From Isurus oxyrinchus (taxonomy: Eukaryota): DNA of 64,000 bases. The stretch spans positions 9,920,001 through 9,984,000 of the forward strand of contig JANJGN010000029.1 of NCBI GenBank assembly GCA_026770705.1, read 5' to 3'. The position numbers and the translations under genes were made by a program. Positions 2,181 through 62,760 of the stretch are shown here, piece by piece; positions within the stretch are counted from its first letter, which is position 1, and each line of letters opens with the position of its first letter. The notes beneath the pieces were generated by a model, which was not told the origin of the DNA, searched no databases, and was given only the letters and a program-made list of their open reading frames with translations.

Positions 2181-2311
2181 GTTCCAATGAAAGATCACAA
2201 TCTGAAACATTAACTCTGACTCTCCCTCCACAGATGCTGCCAGACCTGCTGAGTATTTCCAGCAATATTTTTCTTATTTCAGATATCCATCATCCGCAGT
2301 ATTTTGCTTTT
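2181..2311 (+). repeat. Solo Penelope terminal repeat with degenerate hammerhead motif
   Basis: ccaatga-a-AGAT-caca-ATCT-GAAA-cattaact..ccacagatgctgccagacctgctgagtatttccagc..gcagtattttgctttt. Confidence 0.7.
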
Positions 2312-3877
2312 GGAGAAGCACGTGATGGAGAAAGGTTACGATGTAGATTAGATGCGAAAAGATGGGAGGAGGCTCAAGTAGAGCCTAACTACTGGCATGG
2401 ACTGATTTGGGTGGAAAGGCCTGTTTCTTCCCTGTATATCCTATGTAATCTCGTATTTCCTTTCAATAGATATTATGAATTTTGCATTTATCTATATTAT
2501 TCCGGTATAACTGTATAAGAAAGAAAAGGTATATCCATTTTGGAAGCTGAAAGGTTTTCACATATTCCTAGCGACGTTAGCTACTGCTTTGCAACAACTC
2601 AACTCTATAACTCTCTTGTTCTTTCAGTTGATCCTTTATATCTATACACTCCTCATTTTTACAGCACTTTTTTACAGTTTTGTTACTGTTTCTATCATTG
2701 TTTCTGTGGGCTCTCATAATATCATAAAAATATATTCAGCTGATAAATTGGACATTAGATTAAATATTGCAGTTTCCAAAGCTGTACAGAGCCTACCTAA
2801 TAAAATAAGTAATGTCGCAGGGCATTTGTCTGATAGAGCGACACAGCTTATGAATAGATAAATGATAATTGATAAATGTATATGGAAACCAAAGTTGAGT
2901 TATTCATTGCATTCCTTTTATTCAGACTGTCTAGTCAGATACTGGGTGTAAGAGAGATGCATAACCAAAAAAGTTAAAGAAGCTGTTAATTGTACAACCA
3001 CAGAGATAGTTTTACATCAGATTTAAAACATAGCAGTTCTGTGTGCTCCTGCAATGATTTGTGCTTCCCACTGTGTAAATATAATATTTGACAAAGATTC
3101 AAACTAAGGAGGTGTTTTATCTCTTAGCTGAGTATGATGGACTGATTAAATGAAAAGATCTTTTCTTGGTGTGCCTGGGGCTATGCAGAAACAATATCGC
3201 TGCTTAGAAAAGACAATATCTGTTGGTTTTGGTCATTGTATAATGAGACAACCAGTTAGGAACATGCTAGGAGTGTACTCAAGAGCTTGTAGTCAGATAA
3301 GCCTCACGAATATTAGTTTTATTCTTTAATTTTTCATTCTGATGAATGGTACGGGTAGTCCACTGTGGCAGGAAGCAAAGCCTTGGGCGATTCCTCATGT
3401 AGGAGCATTTCTTTCAAATTTCTCAATGACCTGTCAAAGACTCTTAACTTGATGCATATCTCGTATGCGGATGCTCTTAATTTGGCATATAGTCCTATTA
3501 CGTATTGTGGCATGTTCTAGTTGGCTGAGACTTAAGGCCATGCGAATGCAGAGCAAGCAGATTTTCACAGATTTTGTTACAAGTAAACTTCCTTTAGTTT
3601 TTTCTGTATTTTTGAAATTTTGTAATGTATGTGGCTCTCATCTTGGAGAAATATACACTTTGTGTATTCTCCTTCTCCTTTTTTAATCCATTTTTAAACA
3701 AAGCTGTATATTGAAAATGTACATTTTTATCATGTCATGAAATCTAGCAAAAGCGTGCTCTAAATGAAGGAAAAAAGATAAAAGAGAAAAGGTTAGTAGT
3801 TAAAAGATTCAAAAGATTTATGACTGCCTGTTATAGACTTCTGCTAGAATTAGCATGGATTTTTATGCATTAATATG

Positions 3878-4320
3878 CTTGATTGGCACCCCATCCACTA
3901 CCTTAGACATCCACTACCTTAGACATTTACTCCGTCCACCACCAATGCACAATAGCAGAGCAGTGTGTACCATCTACAAGATGCACTGCAGCAACTCACT
4001 AAGGCTCCTTCAGCAGCACCTTCCAAACTCATGACCTCTACCACTTAAAAGGACAAAGGCAGCAGAAACATGGGAACACCACCACTTCCCCTCCAAGCTG
4101 CACATCATCCTAACTTGCAACTATATTGCCGTTCCTTCACTGTCGCTGGATCAAAATTCTGGAATTTCCTTCTTAACAGCACTGTGGAAGTACCTGCACC
4201 GTGGACAGCAGCAGTTCAAGAAGGTGGCTAACCAGCATCTTCTCATGGGCAATTTAGGGTTGGGCAACAAATGTTCATTTAGCCAGTGATGTCCACATTC
4301 CATGAAAGAATAAAAAAAAA
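3878..4320 (+). mobile_element. LINE family A 3' fragment
   Basis: catctacaagatgcactgcagcaactcac.., ending ccacattccatgaaagaataaaaaaaaa. Contains a 16-bp tandem duplication at 3892-3926. Confidence 0.8.
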
Positions 4321-4457
4321 TTCCCTTCAGGAAACACACACAGCAGATGATTACACCAGTTTGGGGGAGGTAAGGGGAAGGAACTTTGCACAAATAAGTA
4401 GGAAGCAAATGGTTTATCAGCAAATTATATTTGATTAAACTAATTCTGCATCCAAAT

Positions 4458-6005
4458 TAGAGTCATAGAGGTCTACAGCATAGAAAAAGCACCCCCCCAA
4501 TCGATTCTCTGGCTGTCAAGCAAGTACCTAACTATTGTAATCCCATTTTCCAGCAATAGGCCCATAGCCTTGTATGCAATGGCATCGCAAGTGCACATCC
4601 AAATACTTCTTAAATGTTATGAGGGCTTCTGCTCCTACCACCCTTTCAGGCAGTGAGTTCCAGATTCCCACCACCCTCTGGATGAAAAAATTCTTTCTCA
4701 CGTCCCCTCTAAACCTCCTGCCCCTTACCTTAAACCTTTGCCCCTTTGTTTATTGATCCCTCCACCAAAGGGAAAAATTCCTTCCTGTCTACCCTATCTG
4801 TGCCCCTCAATTTTGTACACCTCAATCATGTCCCTCATCAATCTCCTCTGCTGCAAGGAAAATAACCCCAGTCTATCCAATCTTTCCTCATAACTAAAAC
4901 TCTTCAGCCCTTTGCACTATCTCTAGTGTAATCACATCCTTCCTATAATGCGGATTCCAGAACTGCACGCAGTACTCTAGCTGTGGCCTAACCAGCATTT
5001 TATACAGTTCCAGCATAACCTCCCTGCTTTTATATTCTATGCCTGGGTTAATAAAGGCAAGTATCCCATACGCCTTCTTAACCACCTTATTTACCTGTCC
5101 CGCTACCTTAAGAGACCGGTGGACATGCATACCAAGGTCTCTCTGATCCTCGGTGCTTCCCAGGGCCCTACCATTCACCGTGGATTCCCGTGCCTTGTTT
5201 GTCCTGCCCAAGTGCATCACCTCACACATCCACATTAAATTCCATTTGCCACTGATCAGCCCATCTGACCAGCCCGTCCATATCCTCCTGTGATCTAAGG
5301 CTATCCTCCTCACTATTTACCATCCCACCAATTTTCGTGTCATTCGCGAACTTATGATCAACCCCCCTACATTTAAGTCTAAATTGTTTATGTATACCAC
5401 AAACAGCAAGGGTCCCAACACCGATCCCTGTGGAACCCCACTGGACATGGGCATCCAGTCACAAAAATGGTCAACCCTCGACCATCACCCTCTGTTTCCT
5501 GCCACTCAGCCAATTCTGCATCCAATTTGCCAAATTGCCTTGGATCCCATGGGCTCTTACCTTCGTTATCAGTCTCCCATGTGGGACCTTATCAAAAGCC
5601 TTACTGGAGTCCAAGTAGACCACGTCAAATGCATTGCACTCATCTACACACCTGGTCACCTCTTCGAAAAATTCAATCAAATTGGTCAGACATGACCTCC
5701 CCTTAACAAAATCATGTGCTGACTGTCCTTGATTAATGCCTGCCTCTCCAAGTGTAGATTAATTCTGTTCCTCAGAATGGTTCCAATAGTTTCCCCACCA
5801 CTGAGGTTATACTGACTGGTCTGTAGTTCCCTGGTTTATCCCTTCCTCCCTTCTTGAATAACGGTACCACATTGGCTGTCCTCTGGCAGCTCTCCTGTGG
5901 CCAGAGAGATATTGAAAATTGTTGCCAGCGCCCCTGCTATCTCCTTCCTTGCCTCACTCAAACGCCTGGGATAAATTTCATCTGGGCCTGGAGATTTATC
6001 TACTT
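4458..6005 (-). mobile_element. Canonical CR1 LINE (family B): RT region and 3' end
   Basis: FDVVYLDSSKAFDKVPHGRL..WMQNWLSGRKQRVMVEG and MLELYKMLVRPQLEYCVQFWNPHYRKDV. Confidence 0.9.
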
Positions 6006-6054
6006 ACAAATTTAATGCATTTTATTTATTTTCACTCTTTTGTGCTGAATAAAA

Positions 6055-6310
6055 ACATAGAATCAGGAGGAGGCCATTCAGTCCCTTGAACCAGTTGTGC
6101 CATTCAATAGGATTGTTGCTGATTTATATCCTAGCTCCGTTTACTCACTTTGGCTCCATATCCCTTAATATCCTTGGCTAGCAAAACTATCAATCCCAGA
6201 TTTTAAATTATTAATTGAGCAAGCGTCTCCTGTTTTTAATGTGAGAGAGTTCCATACTTCTGCCATCCTTTGTGTGAAGAAATGTTTCCCAACTTCTCTC
6301 CTTAATGGAT
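6055..6310 (-). mobile_element. CR1 3' end fragment
   Basis: catagaatcaggaggaggccattcagtcccttgaacc..ctttgtgtgaagaaatgtttcc. Confidence 0.65.
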
Positions 6311-6380
6311 TTGTGATACTGAAACTGAGAAATAGAACATTTTGCCAATTTGGACATCCAGTGTCAATGTCAACATTAGC

Positions 6381-6480
6381 CGTTCTGATGAAGAGTCATA
6401 CGGACTCAAAATGTTAACTCTGTCTTCCTTTCCACAGATGCTGTCAGACCTGAGTTTTCCAGCAATTTTTGTTTTAGTTC
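6381..6480 (+). repeat. Solo Penelope terminal repeat with hammerhead motif
   Basis: gtt-CTGATGA-a-GAGTC-atacg-GACTC-aaaa-tgttaac, followed by the shared ccacagatgctgtcagacctgag tail. Confidence 0.7.
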
Positions 6481-6944
6481 AACAGTAGCTGCACCCAGGT
6501 GATGTGTAGCACAATGAGGTGTATTATGGAGCCCTTTTCTCTGTCTTAATAATGTGACATATCCTTCAGAAAAAAGCACCCTGCTGCAAAAGTTGCATTT
6601 CCATTTCCCATATTTTGTGGGGTTTTTAGAATGAGTCCCAATTAATATCAAACCATGATCAACTAGGAATTGGGTCAAGATTGTCCCAAAGCTAGTTACT
6701 TGAGAACCTTACAGATATCAGAGAGGAGATTTTCATTATAGTGGCTGCATTTGGGCAAGAACAATGTTAATGTTTGACACCGATTTTATGTTTGCATTTT
6801 ATGGTTTTCTTTGAAGGTCAAAGTCCTGGAGCAAAATGGTAAACAGCAACTTCCAGTGGCAAGTAAGATGGATAAACATTTGAAGTAAAAGAAAATACAG
6901 GGTGATGGGGAGAGAGCAGGGCAGAGGGATTATTTTTGGATTGA

Positions 6945-7525
6945 CATAAAAACAGAAAATGTTGGAAATACTCAGCAGAAGTATTTGTCTAAAGGCAGAG
7001 TGTTGGCTTTCACTTGTTGGTGTCATACTTTGTTTTACTATGTTCCTGTGAAGTGCCTTGGGATATTTCGTCATGTTAAAGTGCTATATAAATATAAGTT
7101 GTTGCAGCATGTCTCTCCTATATATGCTTTTGTTTCTTTACTTATTCCATTATCATCCCCTTTTCCTTTGCGTAATCATCTGGCCTGTCATAACATAAAT
7201 GCAGTCACAACGAGGAGAAGACATGGAAATTTGGGCACTGTGGGAAGGGATTCTGTTATCCAGTTGAGCTGGAAGCTCATCTCTCCAGTCTTCCATCCTA
7301 CCATGGACTTTCCATTTTTGTTTGAACATCCCCTCCCCTGTTTCCTTGCCTCTGTACTTGCTTTAGACCTATAACATCTCTATCTTTTTCCAATTGTAAT
7401 GGAAGGTCATCAACCTGAAAAGTTAACTCTGTTTTTCTCTCCAAAGATGCTTCCTGACCTACTGAGTGTTTCTAGCATTTCCTGTTTCTTTTCAGATACA
7501 CAGTACCCGCAGTATTTTGGTTCTT
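6945..7525. repeat. Penelope terminal-repeat relics (short minus piece, longer plus piece) with an intervening L2-like 3' tail at about 7015-7105
   Basis: aaaacagaaaatgttggaaatactcagcag (minus copy). aaggtcatcaacctgaaaagttaactct..gcagtattttgg (plus copy). The L2-type tail is gtgccttgggatatttcgtcatgttaaagtgctatataaatataagttgttg. Confidence 0.55.
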
Positions 7526-7689
7526 TACTCAAGCAATGCAAAACTAATTAAGAGTTGGTAGTCTTGTTAGGCTGAATGACCAACTTTTGCTCTCAGGCAC
7601 TTTTTCCTTCCCTCTGCCTTATTATCTCTTTTCTTTCTCTCTATGTGTAACTTTTATTTGATTAAGTGCATTTTTAACAATTTTTTTCA

Positions 7690-7960
7690 TTCTACAAGAT
7701 GTACTGCAGCAACTTGCCAAAGCCCCTTGAACAGCATCTTCCAAACCTGCGACCTTTACCACCTAGAAGGACAAGGGTAGTAGACACATGGGAACATCAC
7801 CACCTCTCATGTTTCTCTCAATGTTGCACACTATCATGACTTGCAAATGTATCATTGTTGCTTTACTATCGATGAGTCAAAATCCTGGAACTCCCTCCCT
7901 AACAGCACTGTGGGTGTACCTAGAGCATATGAACTGCACAGGTTGTTGTCAAGGGTAGTC
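7690..7960 (+). mobile_element. LINE family A 3' fragment
   Basis: tctacaagatgtactgcagcaacttgccaa..aaaatcctggaactccctccctaacagcactgtgggtgtacc. Confidence 0.75.
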
Positions 7961-8490
7961 ACTCTCATCTCACTTTAGCTGTCTTCCTTTTTCCTATTTT
8001 TTCTGCATCCTTTCTCTCTTCTGCCCCCTCCTTTACTTGTTCTTTTGCAATTTGAATTTTATTTTCTATTTTGAAGCGTTCTCTGTTTTCATACCTTTTT
8101 AGGCTTAGGTGTGCGTTATTATTGGGCAGAAGCTGGCAGCTGCAAACAGGAAAAGGAATGGAACACAGATCTGTGCCACAGATAGAACTGGTTGAGGTTG
8201 AGGATCTAGCACTGTAGTTCCTCTGATGGCAGCCAAAGGTTAGAGGCAAGGACTGGGCCTGCAAGTTCTATCTTCCAGGCAGAGTGGAGGAATCAAGGAT
8301 TGGTTGGAGACTTGGAAACTGCATGCTTGGTGGTGGGGCTTTCATGATGCATTCTTGTGTGGTGATTGCAGCTTTTGGTGGGAGGAGGTTTGATGATGTG
8401 CGGTGATTGCACCAGGGGAAGAGAGTGGATGTTGAAGAGGTAGTGATGTGAGATACAGTGCTCCTCACTTTGGAGATGCAAATCTTGGGG

Positions 8491-8621
8491 NNNNNNNNNN
8501 NNNNNNNNNNNNNNNNNNNNNNNNNNNNNNNNNNNNNNNNNNNNNNNNNNNNNNNNNNNNNNNNNNNNNNNNNNNNNNNNNNNNNNNNNNNNNNNNNNNN
8601 NNNNNNNNNNNNNNNNNNNNN
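8491..8621. other. Assembly gap (131 N)
   Basis: Run of N. Confidence 1.
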
Positions 8622-9244
8622 AAATATGACACTCAGGCATGACACCTAGATGTGATGGTAATAATACAACATGAGCTTTCTATAATCCCAGTGTGCTATA
8701 TGTAAAATTTCTAATATTATTGATTATATAAAAAAGCCTTCTAAAATTGTTACTTATATCTCAAAGGTTATTTATGTGGTTCAGGGAAGAGTGAAATGTA
8801 TTTCCAGATAAGCCGCAACCTTTAATATATGGTATTTTAATGAGTTCTGTCTTGTGAGATTAACTCACATATAATATATTTGAAGAAAATGCATGCTACT
8901 TTATCACTTAATGTGAAAAATAATGTTAATATAACCAGTAAAATAACAACATTTTACTCCCCTATGCTGAGTTTAACACCATTTGCGGAATCAAAACAAA
9001 ATCAAAATAAGATTTGCAGGGAAGAAAGAGTGACGATTCAGTCAGTGCCAAATGTAGTTTGCATAAACTAAAATGTAGCATTGAGATTTTTTTGAAAATT
9101 ATTGTTATTTCTAGGTTTACAGGGAGCTTTTTCTGGTGACCTATATCTATAATACTGTCAATTTGTGATTTAATTTATTTTATGCACTTAAATAATTTTA
9201 GTACACTTTAATGGTTCTAGTAGTGCCACTTAATATCGCAAAAA

Positions 9245-10307: not shown

Positions 10308-10440
10308 TTCTCTGATGAAAGGTCATTAACTTGAAGTGTTAACTCTGTTTCTCTCCACAGATACTGCCTGACTTGCCGTGTATTTCCAGCATTTTTTGTT
10401 TTAATTTCAGATTTTCAGCATCCGTAATATTTTCCCTTTT
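10308..10440 (+). repeat. Solo Penelope terminal repeat with hammerhead motif
   Basis: CTGATGA at 10312-10318, aaggtcattaactt, GAAG, tgttaact, then the shared tail. Confidence 0.7.
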
Positions 10441-10518: not shown

Positions 10519-10755
10519 ATAAAAGCAAAATACTGTGGATGCTGGAAATCTGAAATAAAAACAGAAATTGCTGGAAATACTCAGCAGGTCTGGCAGCATC
10601 TGTGGAGAGAGAGAAACAGAGCTAAAGTTTCGAGTCCGTGTGACTCTTCTGCTTTAAATAAGAGTCAGATTGGACATGAAACATTAATTCTGTTTCTCTC
10701 TCCACAGATGCTGCCAGACCTGCTGAGTTTTTCCAACATTTCTAGCTTTTATTTA
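10519..10755. repeat. Head-to-head inverted pair of Penelope terminal repeats (palindrome)
   Basis: A minus copy at 10519-10650 and a plus copy at 10660-10755 form arms of about 95 bp, e.g. ctcagcaggtctggcagcatctgtggagagag / ctctctccacagatgctgccagacctgctgag. Confidence 0.8.
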
Positions 10756-23289: not shown

Positions 23290-23450
23290 AAAAGGAAAGT
23301 ACTGTGGAAATGTGATATTAAAAACAGAAAATGCTGAAAACAGAACAGGTAGCATCTGTGGAGAGAAACGTAAGGTTAACATTTCAGCCTCTCGTCAGAA
23401 GTATCAGTTCTGACCTGCTAAGCATTTCCAACATTTTCTGTTTTTATTTA
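23290..23450. repeat. Short inverted pair of Penelope terminal repeats
   Basis: aaaacagaaaatgctg..gcatctgtggagagaaac..ttaacatttcagcctctcgtcagaa, then gacctgctaagcatttccaacattttctgttttt. Confidence 0.65.
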
Positions 23451-25464
23451 GCAAAAGACTGTTTGCGACAGCAGCACCACTAGTCAATTGGGCCTCCTGC
23501 TTCTCAGTTTGCATCCAGTCAGGTACAAGCGTAAGTTGACGATGTGCTGTCTGCTATGTTAGTGCTCCCTCTAATGCCAAAGCCATTTTTCATAAAAGGT
23601 CAGAAATATTCCTTTCCATGTAGTTTCTTGGTGGAGATTTAAAATTGTTCCTAGTTAATGCTTTGTGTGGCAGTTTATAGAGTCTATTGAGACATAGTAT
23701 ATTTTCCCCTAACTAGTTGTGTTTCCTGTCACTGTGATGCATAGAACATTACATGTTGTAATCTGAAATGAAGCAGAAAATGTCTGAGTGAGTTAGGGTC
23801 TTTTTGTCAGGGGACAGCATTAGGATTTTAAAAAATAAAATGTAAAGTCTTAGCATAGTAAATGTGTCTTCCCCGAATTATTAGTATGTAGTGTTTCTAT
23901 TTTATTTTTTATTGTTCATTGTTGTCTGATACTTCAAGGGAGTTTCTAAGGCTGTTGCTTTGGGCTTAATGGATAGCGTAGACAGAATTTGGAAGAGCTG
24001 CTAGTGATTGCAGGCCTCTGCCCTGTCTGACTGTGACAGTAGATTGCAGTGCCAACACCAGAGCCCCAAGGATTTTAGGGGGTCTCGGCTTGTGTTCCGT
24101 CATGGCAAACCCAATGACCTGCCAACATTGAACAGTGCACACTGTTCACATGTAAGTTGTACGACAGATTTCATCTGGCTTTTACCACTTGACTTGCGAC
24201 TAGCTTATGTGTGAATAATTAATGGCAATTAATGTTTAATTACAGTAATTAGACAAGTCACAGAAAATTAAGCTGCAGCTGGGAGTGATGTAGTTTGTGG
24301 CATAGAGGAAGGCTGCAGTATCCTAACTATGTTGAGCATTTCTGACAGCATGGCATAGCTCCCATATACCATCTCCAACACGTTTTCTAATTGCAGCTGA
24401 ATTACACCCCCACATTTATAACACTCCACTAAGATGGGCAGCTAAAACATCATGTCAAGCATGTCATGTGATTTATGTATAGTGCTCTTGCTGATAAGAG
24501 GTAGGCATAATTAAATTCACAAAGAGGGTGTTCTTTATACACACAAAAAAGTCACACCCTAAATTGGTATCTCTACAATTAATTGAATTAATAAAATTGT
24601 GTGACATATTTTAAATCATTTTTCTTCAAAGAAATGCAATATTTCTATGCAATGAATTTGATATTTGTAGATTTGCATGGGTGAATATTACCAGAGCATA
24701 AAACAGATTCTTGGTGAGAATGTATTTGCAAAATTGACAATAGTAGCAAATTAAGTTCCTTAATAACATTTCCCACAGAAGGTAATGAGCTATATCACTA
24801 AGCCAAGAGCTTTTCAGTTAAATTCAGATATAATGAAAGGCTTCAAACACCATTAAAAAGGCAGATGCATATCAAAAATCGGTTTTTAGAAATAGAGGGA
24901 ACATTCCAGGTTTACTGTTTAAATAAATTACATCTTCAGTCTTAAAGCAAACCTTCAGAGGATCACTTATGGTGATTGAAGTGTGTGGCTCCTGATTAAT
25001 TTCAAGCTACCTGTCTGAATGGGCCTAATGATATTCATTTGGTTGTGCCTCAGTAATTGGGTTGAGGACCTTGTACTGGATAGTACTATTGTACGAGATG
25101 CATCTTGATGTTGATACTTTTTTGCCAAATGTTAGTCACTGTTAATGTAACATGGAAAGTGTACTCAGTGGGACCTTAAAGTGTTCACAAGATCATTACT
25201 GACATGGAAGGCCATCAACTCCGAGAGACCCTAACATCCTTCTCGGTTGTAGCATCCTGTAGTTTATTAAATGATTTTAGGAATTTTTTGACTTCACCTC
25301 TCTATCTGGAAGTTTATTCTGCGAGTGGATCACTCTTTGTGCAAAGAAGAATTTGCTGAAATTAGCCCTAAAACTAGCTATATATGTTTGATTCTGCACT
25401 CTTCTCCCCCTCACCGCCTCCCAATTTATTCTGTCAGTTTAAAGAGCTACAATCTGTTAGGAAG

Positions 25465-27849: not shown

Positions 27850-28066
27850 TTCGAAGGAGAGAGGGATAGAGCCTGAGGAGAGAGAACTGGTAAGAATGTC
27901 AGCTAACATGGGAGCATGGAAGGGAAGTTTGGGTGGTCATTAGCTTAGTGGGAATAGGGTTGAGAGAATAGGAAATGGGAGTCATGGACAAGATGAGCTT
28001 AGAGAGAGAATGAGGGGAGATAGGAGAGAAAATAGAGAAAGATACAAGCTCAGGGCTTGGGCAGGG
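27850..28066 (-). mobile_element. L2 LINE RT fragment; continues at about 29390-29480 after the Penelope insertion
   Basis: LSKLILSMTPISYSLNPIPTKLMTTQ..MLADILTSSLSSGSIPLSF, matching the L2-type LDPIPT..SL.SG.VP motif. Confidence 0.65.
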
Positions 28067-29386
28067 TCTCCTCACACCTCGCTTCCTGTAAGGACTCCAT
28101 CCCATTCTCTTGGTTCCTTCGCCTCCGTTGCATCTGTTCTGATGATGCCACTTTCAAAAACAGTTCCTCTGACATGTCTTCCTTCTTCCTTAACCGAGGT
28201 TTTCCACCTACGGTGGTTGACAGGGCCCTCAACCGTGTCCAGCCCATCTCCCGCGCATCCGTCCTCACACCTTTCTCTCCCTCCTAGAAACATGATAGGG
28301 TCCCCCTTGTCTTCACTTATCACCCCACCAACCTCCGCATTCAAAGGATTATCCTCCGCCATTTCTGCCAACTCCAGCATGATGCCACCACCTAACACAT
28401 CTTCCCTTCACCCCCCCGGTGGCATTCCACAGGGATCGTTCCCTCTGGGACACCCTGGTCCACTCCTCTATCACCCCCTACACCTCAACCCCCTCCCATG
28501 GCACCTTCCAATGCAACTGCAGAAGGTGCAACATCTGCCCCTTTATTTCCCCAAGTGCCCAAACACTCCTTTCAAGTGAAGCATCATTTCACTTGCACTT
28601 CCCGCAATTTAGTCTACTGCATTTATTGCTCCCAATGCGGTTTCCTCTGCAGTGGAGAGACCAAATGCAGACTGGGTGACCGCTTTGCAGAACACCTTCA
28701 GTCTGTCCGCAAGCATTACCCAGACCTCCCTGTCCTTGCCATTTCAACACTCCACCCTGCTCTCATGCCCACGTGTCTGACCTTGGCCTGCTGCATTGCT
28801 CCAGTGAAGCTCAACGCAAATTGGAGGAACAGCACCTCATCTTCCAACTAGGCACTTTACAGCCTTCCGGACTGAATATTGAGTTCAACAATTTTAGATC
28901 ATGAACTCTCTCCTCCATCCCCACCCCCTTTCCAATCCCCCCCTTTTATTTCCAATAACTTATATAGATTTTTCTTTTCCCACCTATTTCCGTTATTTTT
29001 AAATGTATTCTCATCCATTGTTTTATCTCTACCTTTTAGCCTATTTCGATTCCTTCACCCCACCCCACCCCCACTAGGTCTATCTGTACCTTGCTTGTCC
29101 TGCTTTCTACCCTTAATTAGCACATTCCTTAGATAATATCATCACCTTCAACACCTCTTTGTCCTTTTGTCTATGACATCTTTTGGCAATCTCCACCTAT
29201 CACTGGCCCTCTATCCAGCTCTACTTGTCCCACCCCCCCTTAAACCAGCTTATATTTCACCTCTTTTCTATTTTTGCTTAGTTCTGTTGAAGAGTCATAC
29301 AGACTCGAAACGTTTAACTATGTTCCTCTCTGTAGATGCTGTCAGACCTGCTGAGTTTTTCCGGGTATTTTTATTTTTATTTTTGT
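28067..29386 (+). mobile_element. Penelope-like retroelement, 5'-truncated: RT thumb, GIY-YIG endonuclease and terminal repeat
   Basis: SSHLASCKDSIPFSWFLRLRCICSDD..FFLNRGFPPTVVDRAL (RT C-terminus), then CNCRRCNICP and HFTCTSRNLVYCIYCSQCGFLCSGETKCRLGDRFAEH (degenerate GIY-YIG), frameshifted. The 3' end carries the hammerhead-like repeat. Confidence 0.88.
29280..29319 (+). ncRNA. Minimal type I hammerhead ribozyme motif (one core substitution) in a Penelope terminal repeat
   Basis: AGTT-CTGTTGA-A-GAGTC-ataca-GACTC-GAAA-CGTT-t-AACT. Helix I is AGTT/AACT, helix II is GAGTC/GACTC, helix III is palindromic ACGT. The core has T in place of A6. Confidence 0.6.
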
Positions 29387-32300
29387 TGTAGAGTAAGTTT
29401 AATTTGGTGGATGAGGGGAAGCAAGGAAAGTGGCATTAGATAGAATGGTCTCAATGTTTGTGACAAAAAAAATTCATCACTTGCAGCTGGGGCTGAAGGC
29501 AGAGGAAACATTCAAATACTCAACCAAGTCTTTGGTCATTTCTCCTAATTATCTCAACAACAATAGGCACCTTCTCCCTTTCCTCCTGATATTCGTTATG
29601 TTAAAGGTGTCATATAAATACAATTTGTTGGTCAGTCACTGGGATAGCAACCTCTGTTTTGATCAGTATTTCCTGCAAGCTGTGAATACACAGCAAACCA
29701 GAAGGTACCGTGGAAGCTGCTCATGAGCTGTTCCATTTGTGGTATCTCGCATGCCTGCAAATAAACTTAAAGGTACCACATATTCAAATGAACAGGCCAC
29801 AAACAGTAGAAACACTTCAGAGGGGACGTTGATTGTGACGGTTTTGGTAAATATTTTGCTTTTTCAAAGCTGTTTGGCTGAAAGCCACTTGATAAACAGA
29901 CTAGAGAGTACATGCTTTTATTATCAAATATTTAAAATGACATAGATTGGAACTTATCACAGTTTACAGTTTTCAATTTAATTTTGCCATCTGCACTATT
30001 AAGAATGGGACTATTTTCAGATATCTTACTGAAGCCTGCTTATGGGTATGCAATTAACAAAAAAAAATAAAGAACCTAATGTGAGTTCTAACTAGCAAAA
30101 ACTCATACTAGAAATCAAATAGCTTGTTTTTCATAAGTTTTGTCAGAATCTCGTGACATTAATTGATCATAAATTGGTTTAAAACAAAATTTTTTCATAT
30201 GATCTTTACTACAGAATAGTTGTTAATAAGATAGCACTTCATGATCTAGTGTGTTATTTTCTTGCAGTCTTCCCAAATTCCCTCCCTCTTAACTGCAGCC
30301 ATTTCAAGAACGTCAGTATGAGACTGTTTCATGTTCTGCTATATCATAATGAAAAATAAAAAAATGTCCTGCAATCCATCACAATAGGATGTTACAAATC
30401 TATGTGGTTACTTACACTGACCACTAAAGGAAGCAGCACAAATTGATATTGGTCTGTGTGGAGATTTCAGTTCAGACAGTTTGAAGCAGAATGCTTTGTA
30501 AATGCACTCATAAATATGTTTGAATTGGTCTGTCGAGGCACTGCAGTCTGCAGCTAGGCTGATGAGTCCTTGTTTTTACATCAGCTATTTTATGTTTATG
30601 CAGAAGGTTTTTGGTGTGCCCAACATTAATAAGAAAACACAGTGTAAAGTAATTAATGCATTTCAATCTTGCAGCATTGTGATTATTACTTTATGTATAC
30701 CAACTATATTTCTGTCTTAGAAGTTCCTTTCATATCAGTGAATCAAGTGCAAGTTGCTGAAGACATTTTCAATGTTATTTAATGTCAAGCTTTTTGGTAA
30801 TATGTATTCAATGAACAAAAATGGTATTTCAAATTCAAAAAAGGCAAATAAGAATATTACTCTGCAAACCATGGTTGTTATTGTGCTTACAGTTTGAAAG
30901 TCACAGATGGATTACTGCTAAAGAGCTTCTCCAAAGTCCTTCGAGCACATCTAGTAGACCTATTCAGTGCCATGTGCATCTTTATTAATCAGATTCAATC
31001 TGCAGTTCCTAACCTCCCCATTTTAGACTCTGATGGAGAAATGAAGTCCTGCAGTAGGAGGACACCATACAGAGAATATTATCACCAGACATCTGTTCTC
31101 TACAATTTTCTTTTTTTAAGAAACAGAAAATCTGGAAGATGTTCAATGAACACCTGAATGAAAAAGATTGGTTAATGTTTTGGGGGTGGGTGTTGGAGGT
31201 GGCGGAGATGTGGTCAGAAACATTAATATCCCCTCAATCTGCTGCTGATTGATCTGCTGTGCATGTCCCACATTTTCTGCTCTTACTCCAGATTTTCAGA
31301 AATTGTAATTTTTCTTAAGCCTGTGTGACAAAATGTAAGATGCAAAAAAAAAGTTATGCAAACAGTCCAGGGGGAAAAACACATTCTACAAGTCTTTAAA
31401 ACTTGTTTGGATTCTGTCGTATGCCTGAAAATATCAAAACTTATACTCCTATGGGGTATGGAGGCAGATATGATAGGATCAGGATTGCATGTCACTCCAG
31501 CTGATCAAAGGAGGGGAAGAAAGCAGCTGGATCAGAGAATCAATTACCTGATTATTTTAAAATAAATAGCCTTTCAGAGGAATGAAAGTACGTTAAATAA
31601 ACACAAAAATACAGTACTACATCTCTTTGGCAAAATTTGGACAGGTCATCCCATTTAATTGCAGTTTGCATAGAGAGGATTTAAACTGATTATTGAATAA
31701 TAGAAGCAATGGCAGAAAACTGGAGTGGTGACTGGAAGCTTCAGAAATTAATTTAGGATTTTGGTCTTTTTGTACAATTCTGGTACACTCTCTAAGCAAT
31801 TCCGATAAAGTTGTTTAGAGATTAGTACATTGCTGCAAATGTTCAGCGCTTAGATTTATTAATGTCATTGCTAAGCAACTGCTGGTAAAACTTTTGAAAT
31901 TATTATCCCTGTAACATACCGTACATTGTGTACCATTTACATTTGTTTATGGAAGTTCAACAGTTGGAAAGTGACCCTTGCCATCTCCCTTAACTCAGCT
32001 CTGGGAAGACTTGAAATATTTGCAGAGCTCAGCTGCCAGGAACTAGCTCAACTTGTTGTTCCAGTTAACCATATTGGGCAAATGCAGAAACGGCCTTTCA
32101 TACTTAATGGGAATGCTTGTCATTTGGAAGAAATTAAAGAAAGTTTGGAAAGTCTTTTGAGTTCCAGGTGGCATGCATGTATAATATCAGAGCTTAAGTG
32201 ACCTCAGTCTAATGTACAGGACATACACTCTATCCACCAAAACAAAGAGAATGTCCACCCCACCCTCCACCCCCAAACATTTTCAGGGAAAATAAAATTT

Positions 32301-33114: not shown

Positions 33115-33380
33115 GTCGGAGGCTTGGTTATGGTGGGTGGACTGGGACCTGGTGGCGGTGGATAGACTGGGGCCTGGCGGTGGTGGATAGACTGGGACGG
33201 GTAGATTGGGGTCTGGTGGGCAAATTTGGACCTGGTGATGGTGGGTAGATTGGGGCCCAGTGGTGGTGGGTAGATTGGGGCGTGGTGGTGGTGGGTAGAT
33301 TGGTGCCCTGTGGTGGTGGGTATATTGGGGTCCAATGGGCAGATTAGGTCTTGGTGTGTAGTTTGGGGCGTAGTGGTGTT
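33115..33380 (+). repeat. G-rich imperfect minisatellite, unit about (GGT)nGGGTAGATTGGGGC
   Basis: About 10 diverged units such as tggtggtgggtagattggggc, inside a GC-richer repeat-like block at about 32870-33750. Confidence 0.8.
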
Positions 33381-41799: not shown

Positions 41800-44325
41800 A
41801 GCTAAAAAGGAATGAAACCGGACGGACCACCTGGCATCAACCTAGATACTGGAAATGGTAGTAGCACACACAGCACTGTCAGCCCTGAAAAGTCCTTCTT
41901 ACTGACTTCTAGAGACTTGTCCCAAAATTGGCAGAGCTGTCCCACAGACTAGTCAAGCATTAGCTGACATAGTCATACTCACCAAATCATACCTTACAGA
42001 TAATCCAGACACCACTATGTCCTTTCCCATGGCAGGACAGACCCACTACAGGACAAAGAAACCTGTTGATTGGCATCCCACCCACAAACATTCACTCCCT
42101 CCACCACTGACACACAGTGGCATGGTACCATCTACAAGATGCACTGCAAGAACTCACCAAGACTCCTCAGACAGCATCTTCCAAACCTACAACCACTACC
42201 ATCTAGTAGGACAAGGGCAGCAGATACACGGAGCACCACCACCTGGAAGTTCCCCTTCAAACCACACATCATCCTGACTTGGAAATATATCGCTGTTCCT
42301 TCACTGTCGCTGGATCAAAATCCTGGAACTCCCTCCCTAACAGCACTGTGGGTGTACCTACACCATATGGACTTCAGCAGTTCAAGGAGGCAGCTCACCA
42401 ACAACTTCTCAAGGGTAATTAGGGATGGCCTAGCCAGTGACGCCCACATCCCATGAATGAATTTTAAAAAATGGTGGCAGCACAGTTGTATAATGTCGGG
42501 TTGGAATATCCCTGAGAGTCCTCAACACCAGCTCCGGACTCCATGAAGTCTCATGAGATCAGGTAAAACATGGGCACCTCCTGCTGATTACCATTCACCA
42601 TTTCCACTTGCCACTTCCCCTCAGCTGATGAATCAGTACTCCTGTGTTGAACACCAATTGGAAGAAGCACCAAGGGTGGCACAGAATGTACTTTGGATGG
42701 GGGACTTAAACGTACATCATAAAGAGTGCCTCAGTAGCACCACTACTAACTGAGCTGACATTGAGGATACCCTCCATCATGTTGTGTGGCACTATCACCA
42801 TGCTAAGTGGGATAGATTTCGAACAGTCTAGCAACTCAACTGGGCATCCATGAGATGCTGTGGGCTATCAGCAGCTGCAGAATTGTATTCAACCACAATT
42901 TGTAACCTCATGGTCCCACATATTCCTCATTCTACCATTACCATCAAGCCGGTGGATCAACCCTGGTTCAGTGAAGAGTGCAGGAGAGCATGCCAGGAGA
43001 GCATGCCAGGCATACCTAAAAATGAAGTGTCAACTTGGTGAAGCTTTAAGACAGGACTTCTTATATGCCATATTGCGGAAGCAGCATGTGATAGAGGTAA
43101 GCAATCCCACAGCCAAAAGATCAGATCAAAGCTCTGCGATCCTGTCACATCCAGTTGTAATGGTGGTGGACAATTAAACAACTAACCAAAGGAGGAGGCT
43201 CCACAAATATCCCATCCTCAATGATGGGGGTACCCAGCAGATCAGTGCAAAAGACAAGGCTAATGCCAGAAGTGCCAAGTGGATGATCCATCTTGGCCTC
43301 CCCCTGAGGTCCCTAGCATCACAGTCTTCAGCCAATTTGATTCACTCCACGTGATATTAAGAAACGGCTGAAGGCACTGGACATTGCAAAGTCTGTGGGC
43401 CCTGACAACATTTCAGCACTGAAGACTTGTGGTCCAGAATTAGCCATGTCCTCAGCCAAGTTGTTCAGCTGCAACACTGGCACCTACCTGACAATGTGGA
43501 AAATTGCCAGGTATTTCCTGTCAATAAAAAGCAGGATAAATTCAACCTGACCAATTATTGCCCCATTAGTCTACTCTTGATCATCAGCAAAAGCGATGGA
43601 AGGTGTTGTTGACAGCACTATCAAGCGGCATGTACACAATAACCTGCTCACTGACGCTCAGTTTGGGTTCCGCCAGGGCCACTCAGCTCCTGACCTCATT
43701 GCAACTTTCATCCAAACATGGACAAAAAAGCTGAACTCAAGAATTGAGGTGAGAGTGAATGGCCTTGACATCAAGGCAGCATTTGACTAAGTGCCGAATC
43801 AAGGAGCCCTAGCAAAACTGGAGTCTATGAGAATCGGGGTAAACTCTCCACTGATTGGAGTCACACCTAGCATAATGGAAGATGGTTATGGTTATTGGAT
43901 GTCATTCATTTCAGTTCCAGATCATCGCTGCAGGAGTTCCTTAAGTAGTATCCCAGGCCCAGCTGCTTCATCAATGACCTTCCATCATAAGGTCAGAAGT
44001 GGGGATGTTCACTGATGATTGCACAACATTCAGTACTATTCGCAATTTCTCAGATACTGAAGCAATCTGTGATCATAATGAGCAAGACTTAGACAACATT
44101 CAGGCTTGGGCTAATAAATGGCAAGTGACATTCACGCCACACAAGTGCCAGACAATGACCATCTCCAACAAGACAGAATCTAACCATCTGCCCATAACAC
44201 TCAGTGGCATTACACTGAATCCCCCACTATCAACACACTGGGGCTACCATTGACCAGAAACTGAAATGGACCCACCATATAAATACAATGGCTACAAGGA
44301 CAGGTCAGAGGCTGGGAATTCTGTG
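41800..44325 (+). mobile_element. Long LINE family A relic (APE endonuclease and RT) with a nested family-A 3' fragment at about 42049-42471
   Basis: Endonuclease motif QNVLWMGDLNVHH; RT motifs QFGFRQGHSAPDL, DIKAAFD and MFTDDCT..QDLDNIQAWANKWQVTF. Many frameshifts. Confidence 0.85.
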
Positions 44326-56394: not shown

Positions 56395-56450
56395 GCAAGA
56401 AAAAAAGATGCTGGAAATACTCAGCAGGTCAGGCAGCACCTCTGGAGAGC
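56395..56450 (-). repeat. Penelope terminal-repeat fragment
   Basis: gatgctggaaatactcagcaggtcaggcagcacctctggagag. Confidence 0.6.
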
Positions 56451-56641
56451 AGGGTTGTCCAATCTTTTTGTGTGGGGGGCCACATGTCAAAATTTTTCTC
56501 ACTCAAGAGGCTGATAAGCAATTTTGGAAAGATAAAGTTTGGTACAACATTAAACATGAATTTAAAGAACAAAGCTGAGGTATGAAAAGAAACAACTTGC
56601 TGAGCAAAAAAATAATGAGGAAGAAATAAAGATGAGTCATA

Positions 56642-58395: not shown

Positions 58396-58426
<31 letters not shown>

Positions 58427-58690
58427 CCCACCAAACTCTCCCTCTCTCTCTCTCACCCCCCCACTCTCTCACCCCCTTTCCTCCCCCCTCTTTCTCTCCC
58501 CTATCTCTCCCTTACCTATCTCTTCCTCCCCCCCTCCCTCACCCTTCTCTCCCCCCATGTCTACCCCCCTGCTCCCTCTCTCCGCCTTCTCTCTCCCCCT
58601 CTCTCACCCCTTCTCTCTCCCCCCCCGCTCTGTCTCTCCCCCCTTTCTCTGTCTCCCCCCACCCCCTCTCTCCGCATTCTCTTGGGCCCC
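58340..58690. repeat. CT-rich low-complexity tract with (CA)n at about 58400-58423
   Basis: Direct inspection. Confidence 0.9.
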
Positions 58691-58984
58691 ACTCCCCTGC
58701 ACCTTTGATCCTTGGACCTGCACCCATTCCCAGGACCCTGCTCCCTGGCACCTCCGCTCCCTGCCCTCTCCCCGGGCCATGAACTCACAGTTGCTGATGT
58801 TTGCTGTTCCTCCGATCACAGTTCATTTCTCTCCCATGTTTTGCTGCTGCTAAGTTCACGGTCTGTGATTGGCCAAGCAGCTCCATGCAGAATCTTCCAT
58901 TCAAACTTACCTGTTTGACCAGCATTTTGATCACTGGCTCTGGGGGCTGCATAGAGTAGCTTCACAGCCCGTATGTTGCACAAG

Positions 58985-59932
58985 CCTGGAAGAGAGAGAA
59001 ACAGAATAATGTTTCAGGTCTCTGACCTTTCATCAGAACTGGGAAAAGTTAGAAATATAATGGCTTTAAACAAGTGAAAGGGGGGGAGGTGTGGAGAAAA
59101 GAACAAAAGGGGAGGTCTAATATAGGGTGGAAGATGGCAGAAATTAAATGACAAAAGAGTTGGTGGCGCAAGACCAAAGGAAGTGGTAATGGGGCAAGTG
59201 AGGAAAGAAAAGATGTGTCTAGAGGAGGTGTGAATGTGAGGATGATGAACAACTTCCATCCGAAAACAAAGACAAGAAAAAAAGGAAAAATGCCCAATTT
59301 TCATTCTGTATACACATGACCCCGACCTTCTGGTTGCCTGTCATTTTAATTCTCCACCTTGTTCTCAGGCTGACCTCTCTGTCCTCAGCTTACTGCAGTG
59401 TTCCACTGAAGCTCAATGCCTGCGTGAGGAACAGTACCTACCTTTCGATTGAACCATTAACCATTAACTCGATCGTGACATCTGGCCCCATTTTGTTTTT
59501 GTTGACAGCAGCTATTTACCATTCTGTTGCTCACACCTTTTCTGGACTAATGAATTGCTCATTTGGAGAACTGATGTACACAATGGGCCAAATGGTCTCC
59601 TTCTGTGCTGTAACAATTCTGAGATTCTAGACACATCTTTTGTTTACATTGCTACTTCCTTTGGCCTTGCATCACCAACTCTTTTGTCATTTAATGTCTC
59701 CTGTCTTCCCGCCTATCTTAGACCTTCATTTTTGTTCTGTTTCTACACTATCCTTTCACTTGCTTAAAACCTATTACATTCCTAACTTTTCCCAGTTCTA
59801 ATGCAAGATCATTGACCTGAAATTTTAGCTCTATTTCTCTCTGCACGGATGCTGCCTGACCGGCTGAGCATTTCCAACGTTTTTCTGTTTTCATTTCTGA
59901 TTTCCAGTGTTTGCAGTACTTTGCTTTCATAT
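58985..59932. mobile_element. Penelope-like relic with inverted terminal repeats around a GIY-YIG C-terminal fragment
   Basis: 58985-59290 is the reverse complement of the terminal region seen at about 59480-59850. 59310-59450 resembles the endonuclease end at 28710-28860. Confidence 0.7.
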
Positions 59933-61605
59933 TACTGACCATAAACAGTTGGAAGTAGCCTGGGCAGTTAGGGGGGAGGGAAGGAGTTTGACAGACAGCT
60001 GTAGTAGGGAGAAACCTGTCTCTCAGGTTTGTGGATCAAACCCCAGAATTTTACCCTGCTCTATATAAAGCCTGTCAGGTATTTTGTTTTGCAAGCAAGA
60101 AAACTGTTGTTGGAGTGACGAGATGTCACTAAGTATAGAGGTCATACTGTCTGCTTGTAACAATGCATGCATAGACTATGAGAAGAAAAAACTGCAAATG
60201 TTAGAGACCTGAGATTAAAAAAGAAAATACTGGAGATGCACAGTGGGTCAGCCAGCACTAGTAAGGGACTCAAGAGCCACAAAATTCAGGATGGTGGAAG
60301 GGTCTTGCACGCTAACTGGTCTCACATTCTTAACCAGTGATCCTAACCTGATATATATTTCCAGCATCGCTGCATTTGATTCCTGAAATGGAAAACAATC
60401 TGAGCCAAAAATGCCTTTTGCATGTTGAAAGGAAGTGTTTTAGTTTTTCAAATTCACTGTTTGGAAAGCACACACAGTAAATTATATCAAACACAGGATC
60501 CCCAAATTCAAGCAAATACTTCCCCATTTGAACAATGGAACATATTTTTGTTTTATCCACCTTTAATCAAAAAAAAATTGTGTTGCTACTGAAACAATGC
60601 AAAATTCGGGAGATTAGTATGAAAAGTCAAAGCTTCCAGTTATATATGGTGCAAAATCTGGCAATGTGCCTTCTGTTCTTGAAGGTGATTAAAAAAGGAT
60701 GGTACCCTGTTGATGGTTTAACATTGATTGCCGACAATGGAGGGAAGTTGTTCATTATTTCTGATGATTTGGTGGAGTATTTGACTCTAGGTCCCATGTG
60801 AAGTGGCTATATGTAGAAATGGTTGCAGACTCTGTTCAGCTGCCCATCTCAAGTCTATTTAAAAAATGAATAAAGCAGCGTACTCCCTCTACTGGAAAAT
60901 ATGGGACAAACAATGCATGACACAGGCAAAACTATTTCTCACTTCACACCATGATCTTCATCCAACAAGTATTAGTGAATGTGACTTCATATGTGTACAA
61001 ATTGAACACTGCAGTAACATTTCAACATAGAAAGCGATAATACTGCACAAAAGAATGTTTATGAAATATGGTTCTATACATTTTTCCAATTCTCTGTCGC
61101 ATTGATTGCTGATTTCACTTGATGCATAACTGAAAAGTGATGTGTTTTTGAAAAATGGAAGCCTTTTAATACTAGATCGGTTAATCAGGAATCAATGCTG
61201 AGCATCTTTTAACTGATTATTGATGCTGAGAGAATTGACCTTCATTATTTTAAAAGCATTTGTCAAAATTCAATACGGCAGTTTAATTTTGATATGGATT
61301 TTGAAGAAATATAAAATTTTAATGAAGCAAAAATGGTAAATGTCAATATCACACTTTAAATGATAAGCTAGGTATTGACTTTTGAAATGATTTGCTAACC
61401 TTAGATAGTGGACTTGTAACTATGGAGCATTGCACTCATGGAAGCCTGAACTGAAACTTCAGGACACATAAACATGAGACTAGGCCATGTAAAAAGAGCT
61501 TATTTGTTTCTTTATATTTTTACAAAAAAAACTATTTAGATCTATTCCAAAGTAGAATTAAACGTTTCTTCAGAGTGTAAGTTGAATCTCCCTTTAAACT
61601 GTGGT

Positions 61606-62150
61606 AATAACAACAATGGCAACTTATATTTATGTAGCACCCGTAATGGAATGAAACGTCCCAAGGCGCTTCCCAGGAGCATTGTTCAACAAAATGTGAC
61701 ACTGAGTCACATAAATAGATGTTAGGTCAGATGACCAAAAGCTTGGTCAAGAGGAAGCTTTTAAGAAGTGTAGGGAAGGAATTCCGGAGCTTGGGGCCTG
61801 GGCAACTGAAGGCATGGCCACCAATGATGGGGCAGTTATGATTGGGAACGCACAAGAGGCTAGAATTAGAGGAGCACAGATATCTCAGAGGGTTGAGTTG
61901 TTAGAAGGGATTACAGAGGGGATTTGAAAACAAGGATGAGAATTTTAAAATAAAGATGTTGCTTGACTGGGAGCCAATGTAGGTCAGCAAGCACAGGGGT
62001 GAAAGGGGAACGGGGCTTGCTGTGAGTTAAGGCACGGGCATCAGATGACCTCAAGTTTACGGAGTATAGAATGTGAGACACCAGCCAGGACGGTGTTGGA
62101 TTGGTCGAGTCTAGATGTAATGAAGGCGTGGATGAGAGTTGTATTGAATG
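61606..62150 (-). mobile_element. L2 LINE 3' fragment
   Basis: LIHAFITSRLDQSNTVLAG..RKLEVI and ARALTHSKPRSPFTPVLADLHWLPVKQHLYFKILILVFKS. The tail reads gtgctacataaatataagttg..(TTG)n on the minus strand. Confidence 0.85.
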
Positions 62151-62262
62151 TACTGAAAAGCAATGTACTGTGTAAAGCTCTGGCAACTAAAGCTAGAGGC
62201 ACTGTATCTTGCTGGATATTTCCATTGCAAAGACTGTAACATTCTCTTTCTGCTCTACACAG

Positions 62263-62507
62263 TGCTGAGTATTCGAGGTGTCCAAGAAGAGGAGCCCCCA
62301 GACCCACAGTTGATGAGACTGGATAACATGCTGTTGGCTGAAGGAGTATCTGGGCCTGAGAAGGGTGGAGGGTCAGCAGCAGCTGCAGCCGCAGCAGCAG
62401 CATCAGGTGGATCACCGAATGACAACTCCATCGAGCACTCTGACTACAGAGCCAAACTCACACAAATCCGACAGATTTACCACTCAGAGCTGGAGAAATA
62501 TGAGCAG
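62263..62507 (+). CDS. PBX4: Internal coding exon (exon 3 equivalent, PBC-A/PBC-B region with poly-Ala linker) of a PBX TALE homeobox gene, most similar to PBX4
   Basis: Translates as (V)[81 protein letters not shown], a clear PBX PBC domain. Acceptor ttctctttctgctctacacAG ends at 62262; donor GTATGA starts at 62508. Length 245 nt, phase 1 to phase 0, as in vertebrate PBX exon 3. The residues IRGVQ, GGSPND and IYHSELE favour PBX4 (recalled from memory, so the paralog is less certain than the family). Confidence 0.9.
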
Positions 62508-62661
62508 GTATGAACCACATAACCAAATAATGTGTAGTGTTAAATAGCCCAACATCCACAATCCATCAGATTTATTCCATTTCAAATTTCATACCTGAAT
62601 TCCTCAGACAAATCCATTCAATATCAATAAGGTCAATTTAAACAAGGAGTGAAATGTTCAA

Positions 62662-62760
62662 TATAAAATAAAGATAGAAAGTGTTGGAAATACTCAGCAG
62701 GTCTGGCAGCATCTGTGGAGAGAGAAACAAAGTTAATGTTTCATGTTGACTCTTCAGACC
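62662..62760 (-). repeat. Penelope terminal-repeat fragment just downstream of the PBX exon
   Basis: gtgttggaaatactcagcaggtctggcagcatctgtggagagagaaacaaagttaatgtttca. Confidence 0.7.

What the first reader, a model, noticed from the sequence alone, without database searches (positions are those of the whole stretch)
2181..62760. Dispersed family of hammerhead-ribozyme-bearing Penelope terminal repeats inside a PBX intron
Seen: about a dozen copies of a 100-150 bp repeat, at about 2181, 6381, 6945/7390, 10308, 10519/10660, 23290, 29280, 56395, 59000, 59795, 60190 and 62662. The head consensus is AGTT-CTGATGA-A-[helix II]-GAAA-CGTT-AACT. Helix II differs between copies but stays paired: GAGTC/GACTC (6393-6407, 10632-10646, 29292-29306), AGGTC/GACCT (59016-59028) and AGAT/ATCT (2192-2203), which is covariation. 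One copy is attached to a GIY-YIG Penelope element. Established: Penelope-like elements carry minimal type I hammerheads with a palindromic helix III thought to cleave as dimers; an extra A after CUGANGA occurs in some natural hammerheads; conserved intronic hammerheads exist in amniote genes such as RECK. Inference: these are at least two subfamilies of short, possibly non-autonomous ribozyme-bearing retro-repeats. Plus-strand copies would be co-transcribed in one pre-mRNA, allowing pairing in cis. Caveat: every copy I could read deviates somewhere from consensus.
Basis: partly seen in the sequence, partly recalled or inferred. Interest (0 to 1): 0.7.

Follow-up and report, generated by a model that had tools for sequence, protein, structure and literature searches.

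The report
Penelope retrotransposon ends with decayed hammerheads
These repeats are the end-pieces of a very abundant, known kind of jumping gene in a shark-like genome; every copy in this window has a damaged self-cutting RNA motif, so they likely do nothing to the PBX transcript, and the odd points are that many short copies begin at one fixed spot and that the youngest family carries a changed core letter.

Summary
The repeats are real: 16 hits, about 13 insertions, with helix II paired as described. They are 3' ends (minimal type I hammerhead plus tail) of an autonomous RT + GIY-YIG Penelope-like element of Neptune/Nematis type. Intact 918-aa copies with two direct hammerheads 3.3 kb apart exist elsewhere in the genome. 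The PBX intron is not special: 130 copies/Mb over 262 kb against 107/Mb in random samples (about 0.5 million genome-wide), 20 sense and 14 antisense. No window copy passes a strict hammerhead descriptor, so cutting of the pre-mRNA by copies paired in cis is unlikely. Short copies share haplotypes with long ones, so they are not a separate SINE or retrozyme lineage. Two features go beyond the papers I read. First, 21 of 42 young copies start within -8..+11 of helix I's first base; none starts at the cleavage site (+35), one at +34. Only 1 of 23 near-full-length copies stops at that position in the upstream hammerhead, which points to an RNA 5' end. Second, the youngest family has U at core position 6 (31 of 31). 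This scan noted both features before on other DNA of this genome.

The parts
2175..2311 (+). Short PLE end, old subfamily with A10.1-U11.1; core broken (CCAAUGA)
6376..6480 (+). Short PLE end starting at helix I; CUGAUGA intact but G12A and C15.2U
6945..6978 (-). Tail-only fragment, no hammerhead
7390..7497 (+). Short PLE end, core broken
10310..10424 (+). Short PLE end; CUGAUGA intact, A15.1G and mismatched helix II
10519..10755 (.). Head-to-head inverted pair of short PLE ends (10519-10649 minus with tail; 10660-10755 plus); both lack the first core box
   Evidence: (I20)
23290..23451 (.). Decayed inverted pair (minus copy with deleted helix II; plus tail fragment)
28068..29385 (+). 5'-truncated Penelope-like element: frameshifted RT thumb/linker/GIY-YIG remains (28057-28901), 3' UTR, terminal hammerhead at 29280-29320 with U6 and an extra U
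   Evidence: 80% DNA identity to an intact copy over 1378 columns
31213..31293 (+). Weak, very decayed copy
   Evidence: E 0.0014
56397..56455 (-). Tail-only fragment
58985..59930 (.). One insertion: inverted terminal repeat (hammerhead at 59036, minus), GIY-YIG C-terminal remnant 59315-59446 (plus), direct terminal repeat (59786-59930, plus, core broken)
   Evidence: (I8, I25)
60209..60268 (-). Weak tail-only fragment
62259..62510 (+). PBX coding exon (PBC domain positions 49-119); preceding PBC exon about 287 kb upstream
62661..62767 (-). Short PLE end with helix II largely deleted, in the next intron

Best explanation
The repeats are the 3' terminal pieces (minimal hammerhead plus tail) of an autonomous RT + GIY-YIG Penelope-like retrotransposon; the copies in this window are decayed insertions at background density and are likely inert toward the PBX pre-mRNA. 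Shown: unit layout [hammerhead - tail - 918-aa ORF - 3' UTR - hammerhead - tail], partial tandems, head-to-head pairs, 11-13-nt target duplications on some solo copies, two discrete 3' ends (about +100 and +135 from helix I) and a sharp 5' hot spot at the first bases of helix I. Inferred from the Anolis Poseidon biochemistry (PMC11167929): the element protein nicks target DNA and primes reverse transcription inside the RNA at one of two tail sites, which gives the two 3' ends. Inferred here (about 55% within this explanation): the fixed 5' end is an RNA 5' end, probably the transcription start of the pLTR promoter (AT-rich box about 30 nt upstream, initiator-like YYAGTT). RNAs that begin there and are primed at their 5' pLTR-ORF junction would give 100-135-nt run-off cDNAs, which integrate alone or as inverted pairs. 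Longer templates or template jumps give the long copies. Hammerhead cleavage is likely not what sets the ends of the DNA copies, and is likely weak in the youngest family (U6).
For: Window copy 29280 continues into GIY-YIG/RT remains, 80% identical to intact elements. 5 of 16 fetched near-full-length copies have an intact 918-aa ORF with a CX4CX2C linker, and 12 of 16 show two sense hammerhead matches about 3.3 kb apart; ORF 5' ends are 98-100% identical. Density: 74 hits in 690 kb random, 34 in 262 kb intron, p=0.39; strand 20/14, p=0.39. Strict descriptor: 0 window copies on either strand; 0 canonical-A6 against 19 U6 copies in 690 kb. 5' breaks of 42 young copies: 21 at -8..+11, 0 at +12..+33, 1 at +34, 4 at -30..-23, 12 beyond -250; 3' ends cluster at 95-110 and 133-135. 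Upstream hammerhead of near-full-length copies: 1 of 23 stops at -8..+11 and 19 run past -30; Fisher p=2.5e-5, or 9e-5 after collapsing pairs by hand. Short and long copies share the modal haplotype (4 of 19, 3 of 12). Architecture matches PMC8557442, PMC4209133 and PMC11167929.
Against: No transcription start was measured: the RNA runs on offer were contigs only. The AT-rich box near -30 is weak (TATATTT, CATAAAA, TTTAAAG) and the families are homologous, so its spacing is not independent evidence. A simple one-start model does not by itself explain why 19 of 23 full-length copies run past the upstream hammerhead; it needs read-through, circular templates or efficient jumps. The two samples compared were drawn differently (arbitrary positions against best hits). 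The 64-kb window alone is about 2.3-fold richer than random (16 hits, p=0.004); this is post hoc, the seeds came from the window, and the other 200 kb hold 19 hits. Three canonical-core old copies (without the CG palindrome) and four sense U6 copies lie in the wider intron, so weak cleavage is not excluded.
Confidence: 0.88

Rival explanations
1. The fixed 5' end comes from the copying enzyme, not from an RNA end: early in synthesis RT is weakly processive, and after passing the hammerhead the cDNA folds back on the AG-TT-CT quasi-palindrome or on helix I and is released.
For: Three inverted pairs (L146, L127, L108) have junctions that are perfect fold-backs at position 0. PMC3846280 proposes self-priming for palindromic junctions (passages).
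Against: The same sequence stops only 1 of 23 near-full-length copies, so the stop is not sequence-intrinsic unless confined to the early phase. Solo copies with clean target duplications also start there. A hairpin stall would be expected on the 3' side of helix II, where 0 of 37 stop.
Confidence: 0.35
2. The short units are self-propagating non-autonomous elements (PLE-dependent SINE or monomeric retrozyme) with their own source copies.
For: Sharp 5' end; target duplications of 11-13 nt on 3 solo copies; a three-unit insert with a 12-nt duplication and a short tandem dimer in L091. Retrozymes derived from pLTRs are described, including in one chondrichthyan (10.64898/2026.07.22.740005, parts 1-3 of 5 read).
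Against: No diagnostic changes private to independent short insertions; same modal haplotype as long copies. Every subfamily examined also has long members with shared upstream UTR. No tandem arrays of the unit in the window.
Confidence: 0.1
3. Sense copies in the PBX intron pair in cis as hammerhead dimers and cut or regulate the pre-mRNA, like domesticated intronic hammerheads.
For: Nine sense hits lie in the window part of the intron; four sense U6 copies with paired helices (three with the CG palindrome) lie within 42 kb upstream. Dimer cleavage is described for PLE hammerheads, at low rates.
Against: No intact copy in the window; no strand bias or enrichment; copies decay by CpG loss, including G12A; an A6C change gave low activity (<0.1 per min) in PMC3088659 (section 8); the Anolis hammerhead did not cut without element protein.
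Confidence: 0.03

Closest known systems
Minimal type I hammerheads in pLTRs of metazoan Penelope-like elements (Cervera and de la Pena 2014, PMC4209133; parts 1-2 of 4 read, one supplement searched)
   Same: 4-bp helix I, unpaired base before helix II, palindromic 15.2-16.2 and no helix III; thousands of dispersed single motifs linked to truncated PLEs; opposite-strand pairs; several consensus families per genome; Neptune elements included.
   Different: Shark terms had 0 hits in the searched supplement (file 1 not searched). About 0.5 million copies here against 2,000-9,000 descriptor hits there (methods differ). The youngest family has U6, which is not among the variants in the parts I read.
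EN+ PLEs, Neptune/Nematis type (Craig et al. 2021, PMC8557442; passages)
   Same: Single ORF with RT and C-terminal GIY-YIG, CX2-5CxxC linker, heavy 5' truncation, partial tandems, inverted 5'-truncated copy, optional 30-40-bp tail.
   Different: A fixed 5' truncation point at the hammerhead is not described in the passages read.
Poseidon of Anolis carolinensis (Frangieh et al. 2024, PMC11167929; parts 1-2 of 4 read)
   Same: Two discrete 3' ends about 30-35 nt apart just downstream of the hammerhead; insertions do not begin at the cleavage site.
   Different: There the ORF starts inside helix II; here the long ORF starts 172 nt after helix I, behind a short upstream ATG. Different clade (linker motif present here).
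Non-LTR retrozymes (Li et al. 2026 preprint 10.64898/2026.07.22.740005; parts 1-3 of 5 read)
   Same: Short, non-coding, type I hammerhead, derived from pLTRs.
   Different: Defined as tandem repeats with a complete hammerhead in each unit; the copies here are dispersed monomers or inverted pairs that share haplotypes with autonomous elements.
Conserved intronic hammerheads such as RECK (figure legend in PMC6155905; details recalled)
   Same: Intronic location.
   Different: Those are conserved, canonical motifs (recalled: single copy, active as monomers); these are decaying repeats at background density with no strand bias.

Membership tests
EN+ Penelope-like element | Single ORF with RT and C-terminal GIY-YIG | tested here: met
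   Pfam RVT_1 E 6.7e-7 and GIY-YIG E 0.001 (below its curated cut-off) in L091; intact 918-aa ORF in 5 of 16; window remnants match it
EN+ Penelope-like element | Partial-tandem pLTRs, inverted 5' copies, optional tail | tested here: met
Neptune/Nematis clade | CX2-5CxxC linker before GIY-YIG | tested here: met
   CX4CX2C at residues 784-792; definition
Neptune/Nematis clade | Placement in an RT phylogeny | not tested
   no reference PLE set fetched
PLE minimal type I hammerhead | Helix I, helix II, extra base after A9, palindromic 15.1-16.1 | tested here: met
PLE minimal type I hammerhead | Invariant core CUGANGA...GAAA in the old subfamilies | tested here: met
   A6 in 19 of 21 and 11 of 12 aligned copies, though individual copies are decayed
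PLE minimal type I hammerhead | Invariant core CUGANGA in the youngest family | tested here: not met
   U6 in 31 of 31 and in all full-length copies
PLE minimal type I hammerhead | Self-cleavage as a dimer | not testable with these tools
   needs in vitro assay
Non-LTR retrozyme | Tandem units each with a complete hammerhead | tested here: not met
   no tandem array in window; one short dimer elsewhere
SINE-like non-autonomous family | Own lineage with diagnostic changes | tested here: not met
   35 young copies
Domesticated intronic hammerhead | Intact core, sense orientation, single locus | tested here: not met
Domesticated intronic hammerhead | Conservation across species | not tested
   no relative genome held for G000

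The most novel reading that the evidence does not exclude
Penelope-like elements make a strong-stop product: the RNA starts at the first base of the hammerhead, reverse transcription is primed about 100-135 nt inside that 5' end, and the cDNA must jump to the 3' repeat to go on. Failed jumps are integrated and make up about half of all copies here. The hammerhead fold is kept as the 5' handle of the RNA even after the core lost A6.
Probability: 0.3. Interest if true: 0.68.

Novelty: new member of a known kind. Interest (0 to 1): 0.3.

Why it matters
For the PBX gene it very likely does not matter. For Penelope biology, how these elements regenerate their terminal repeats and what the hammerhead is for remain open. 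This genome offers a recently active family with intact ORFs, a fixed 5' stop that is used at the first hammerhead but rarely at the second, and a natural U6 core variant that kept spreading. These make the start-site/strand-transfer model and the need for cleavage directly testable.

Tried and rejected
Rfam scan of the window: no hammerhead family at E<=5. Single-strand folding of six copies: no stability beyond shuffles (z -0.84 to +0.69), helix II appears only in some centroid structures; uninformative for a motif that needs a dimer. An apparent 989-aa ORF in L091 starting behind a hammerhead was chimeric: its first ~70 residues lie in an unrelated LTR-like repeat, and the hammerhead trio upstream is a separate insert; the true start was found from 29 other copies. 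Hypothesis that short copies start at the ribozyme cut (+35): 0 of 42 young copies at +35, 1 at +34; a few old copies may start near it (e.g. L110:8673), not a peak. Hypothesis of a spliced 5' end at the AG of helix I or at the CAG/ATG acceptor-like site: short copies share no upstream exon and RNA contigs show no GT..AG joint; contigs cannot show absence. RNA contigs of four runs cover the element but cannot give starts, strand or level, and the RNA label is a guess. The collapsed count typed (20 of 32) was loose and is replaced. Rows dropped: copies under 87% identity or score under 80 were left out of the breakpoint count; 2 young copies were unmatched; L204 was dropped as a duplicate of L203; identical or truncated copies were left out of alignment A1 (53 rows: 51 of the 69 listed plus 2 more window copies). 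Lunse et al. on PLE hammerhead variants could not be read and may contain a position-6 variant. A search for 'hammerhead ribozyme' + 'A6U' + 'core' gave one twister paper; searches listed no paper on shark PLE hammerheads or fixed-start solo pLTRs (listings only).
Full report
Observation. The quoted helix II strings are exact. The hits are about 13 insertions: 10519/10660, 23319/23410 and 59036/59795 are inverted pairs, and the last encloses a GIY-YIG remnant at 59315-59446. Several hits are tail-only. The window lies on contig C29 of a 4.98-Gb genome; I call it shark-like from my own knowledge of its repeats and size. A PBC-domain exon lies at 62259-62510 and the preceding PBC exon about 287 kb upstream on the same strand (that it belongs to the same gene is inferred). 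So all hits but the last share one PBX intron.

What the repeat is. The copy at 29280 ends a 1.3-kb 5'-truncated element with RT-thumb and GIY-YIG remains. Searches of the genome return many relatives at 93-96% and a younger family whose ORF starts are 98-100% identical. Of 16 near-full-length copies fetched, 5 have an intact 918-aa ORF and 12 show two sense hammerhead matches, 172 nt before the ATG and about 3.15 kb after it. The linker CX4CX2C marks the Neptune/Nematis type as defined in PMC8557442 (passages); no tree was built. Partial tandems, inverted 5' copies and an optional tail are all present and are described features of the class.

The hammerhead. The motif fits the minimal type I hammerhead of PMC4209133 (parts 1-2 read). 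In 53 natural copies helix II is 92% paired, with changes on both sides between subfamilies; helix I is 82% paired with no real covariation. Counts are by sequence, so this reflects two or three ancestral events, not a formal covariation test. Old subfamilies have A6 and a GUU triplet and decay at CpG sites, including G12A. The youngest family has U6 in 31 of 31 copies and a GUC triplet. PMC3088659 reports low activity for a natural A6C variant (section 8), so reduced cutting is inferred for U6, not shown. A strict descriptor finds no intact copy in the window on either strand, 3 canonical-core and 6 U6 copies in 262 kb of intron, and 0 canonical against 19 U6 in 690 kb of random sequence.

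Is the intron special? No. 69 arbitrarily placed 10-kb stretches hold 74 hits (107/Mb; about 0.42-0.67 million genome-wide under Poisson, though clumped), and 262 kb of the intron hold 34 (130/Mb, p=0.39), 20 sense and 14 antisense (p=0.39). The window alone is richer (16 in 64 kb, p=0.004), but it was chosen for this and supplied the seeds; the other 200 kb hold 19. The element covers about 3.7% of the random sample. About 25 kb at the start of the intron were not fetched.

Are the short copies their own family? Among 35 young copies, short, intermediate and long ones share the modal haplotype, and the differences confined to short copies come mostly from the two halves of single inverted insertions. 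Three solo copies carry 11-13-nt target duplications, so they are true insertions, not deletion remnants. They look like products of the autonomous masters.

The fixed start. With the A of helix I as 0, the 5' ends of 42 young copies fall as follows: 21 at -8..+11 (16 insertions after collapsing pairs by hand), 0 at +12..+33, 5 at +34..+63, 4 at -30..-23, 12 beyond -250. The hot-spot rate is about 26 times that elsewhere. Older A6 subfamilies show the same start (window copies 6381 and 10311). None starts at the cleavage site (+35) and one at +34, in line with PMC11167929, where cleavage was not needed for insertion in vitro (parts 1-2 read). The 3' ends cluster at 95-110 and 133-135, like the two internal initiation sites of that paper. 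New here: of 23 near-full-length copies that reached the upstream hammerhead, only 1 stops at -8..+11 and 19 run past -30 (p about 1e-4 after collapsing). The sequence alone therefore does not force a stop. The simplest reading is that a pool of templates ends there. An AT-rich box lies about 30 nt upstream in each subfamily and the site resembles an initiator (consensus recalled); a TATA plus Inr in a pLTR was noted in rotifer elements (PMC3846280, passages). In Anolis the RNA had to extend well past the initiation sites, so only the 5' pLTR-ORF junction would be a full substrate; priming there on an RNA that starts at helix I gives a 100-135-nt run-off cDNA. Against this: no start was measured, the two samples were drawn differently, and read-through, circles or efficient jumps are needed to explain long copies. 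An early-phase stall with fold-back remains a live rival.

Verdict. This is a new member of a known class. The fixed start and U6 core are not in the paper parts I read or in the listings of searches, but Lunse et al. could not be read and the preprint supplements were not seen. Earlier notes of this scan saw both features on other pieces of this genome; I had reached both before looking, and they are not independent support.

Noticed in passing
L091:5125-5436: One insert made of three short units (one inverted with tail, two in direct tandem) flanked by a 12-nt target duplication; a natural short tandem dimer of the hammerhead unit.
   Followed up: partly
L091:4475-5060 and L152-L180: An unrelated abundant ~600-nt repeat that begins with TGT(T)A(C/T)GATC and looks like a solo LTR (2021 first-look candidates, about 79% identity); a PLE inserted in frame with it gives a chimeric 989-aa ORF.
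   Followed up: partly
window 2216-2235, 10343-10362, 10690-10710 (plus-strand copies): The repeat contains a strong 3' splice-acceptor-like tract (TTAAC, pyrimidine run, CACAG) directly followed by an ATG; sense copies could in principle be exonised in host introns. No GT..AG joint was seen in RNA contigs.
   Followed up: partly
L183:1175-1326: Contigs of two runs from different studies skip the same 150 nt just upstream of the hammerhead (ends AC..CA): probably a deleted genomic subfamily rather than splicing.
   Followed up: no
window 59040-59065 (minus) and 59770-59795: In this old subfamily the bases upstream of helix I read as branch point plus pyrimidine tract plus CAG, recalling the Drosophila virilis Penelope intron that ends at helix I.
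   Followed up: no
window 33131-33338: 25-bp G-rich minisatellite, about 7 copies.
   Followed up: no
window 1170-2070, 3960-4310, 4894-5695, 7680-7940, 42120-42460, 63150-63690: Many fragments of abundant LINE-type repeats with RT remains (CR1/L2-like by recalled motifs), in both orientations.
   Followed up: no
G000 C8, C16, C21, C29: Four PBX paralogues, each with a long intron (about 56-360 kb) between the same two PBC exons.
   Followed up: no
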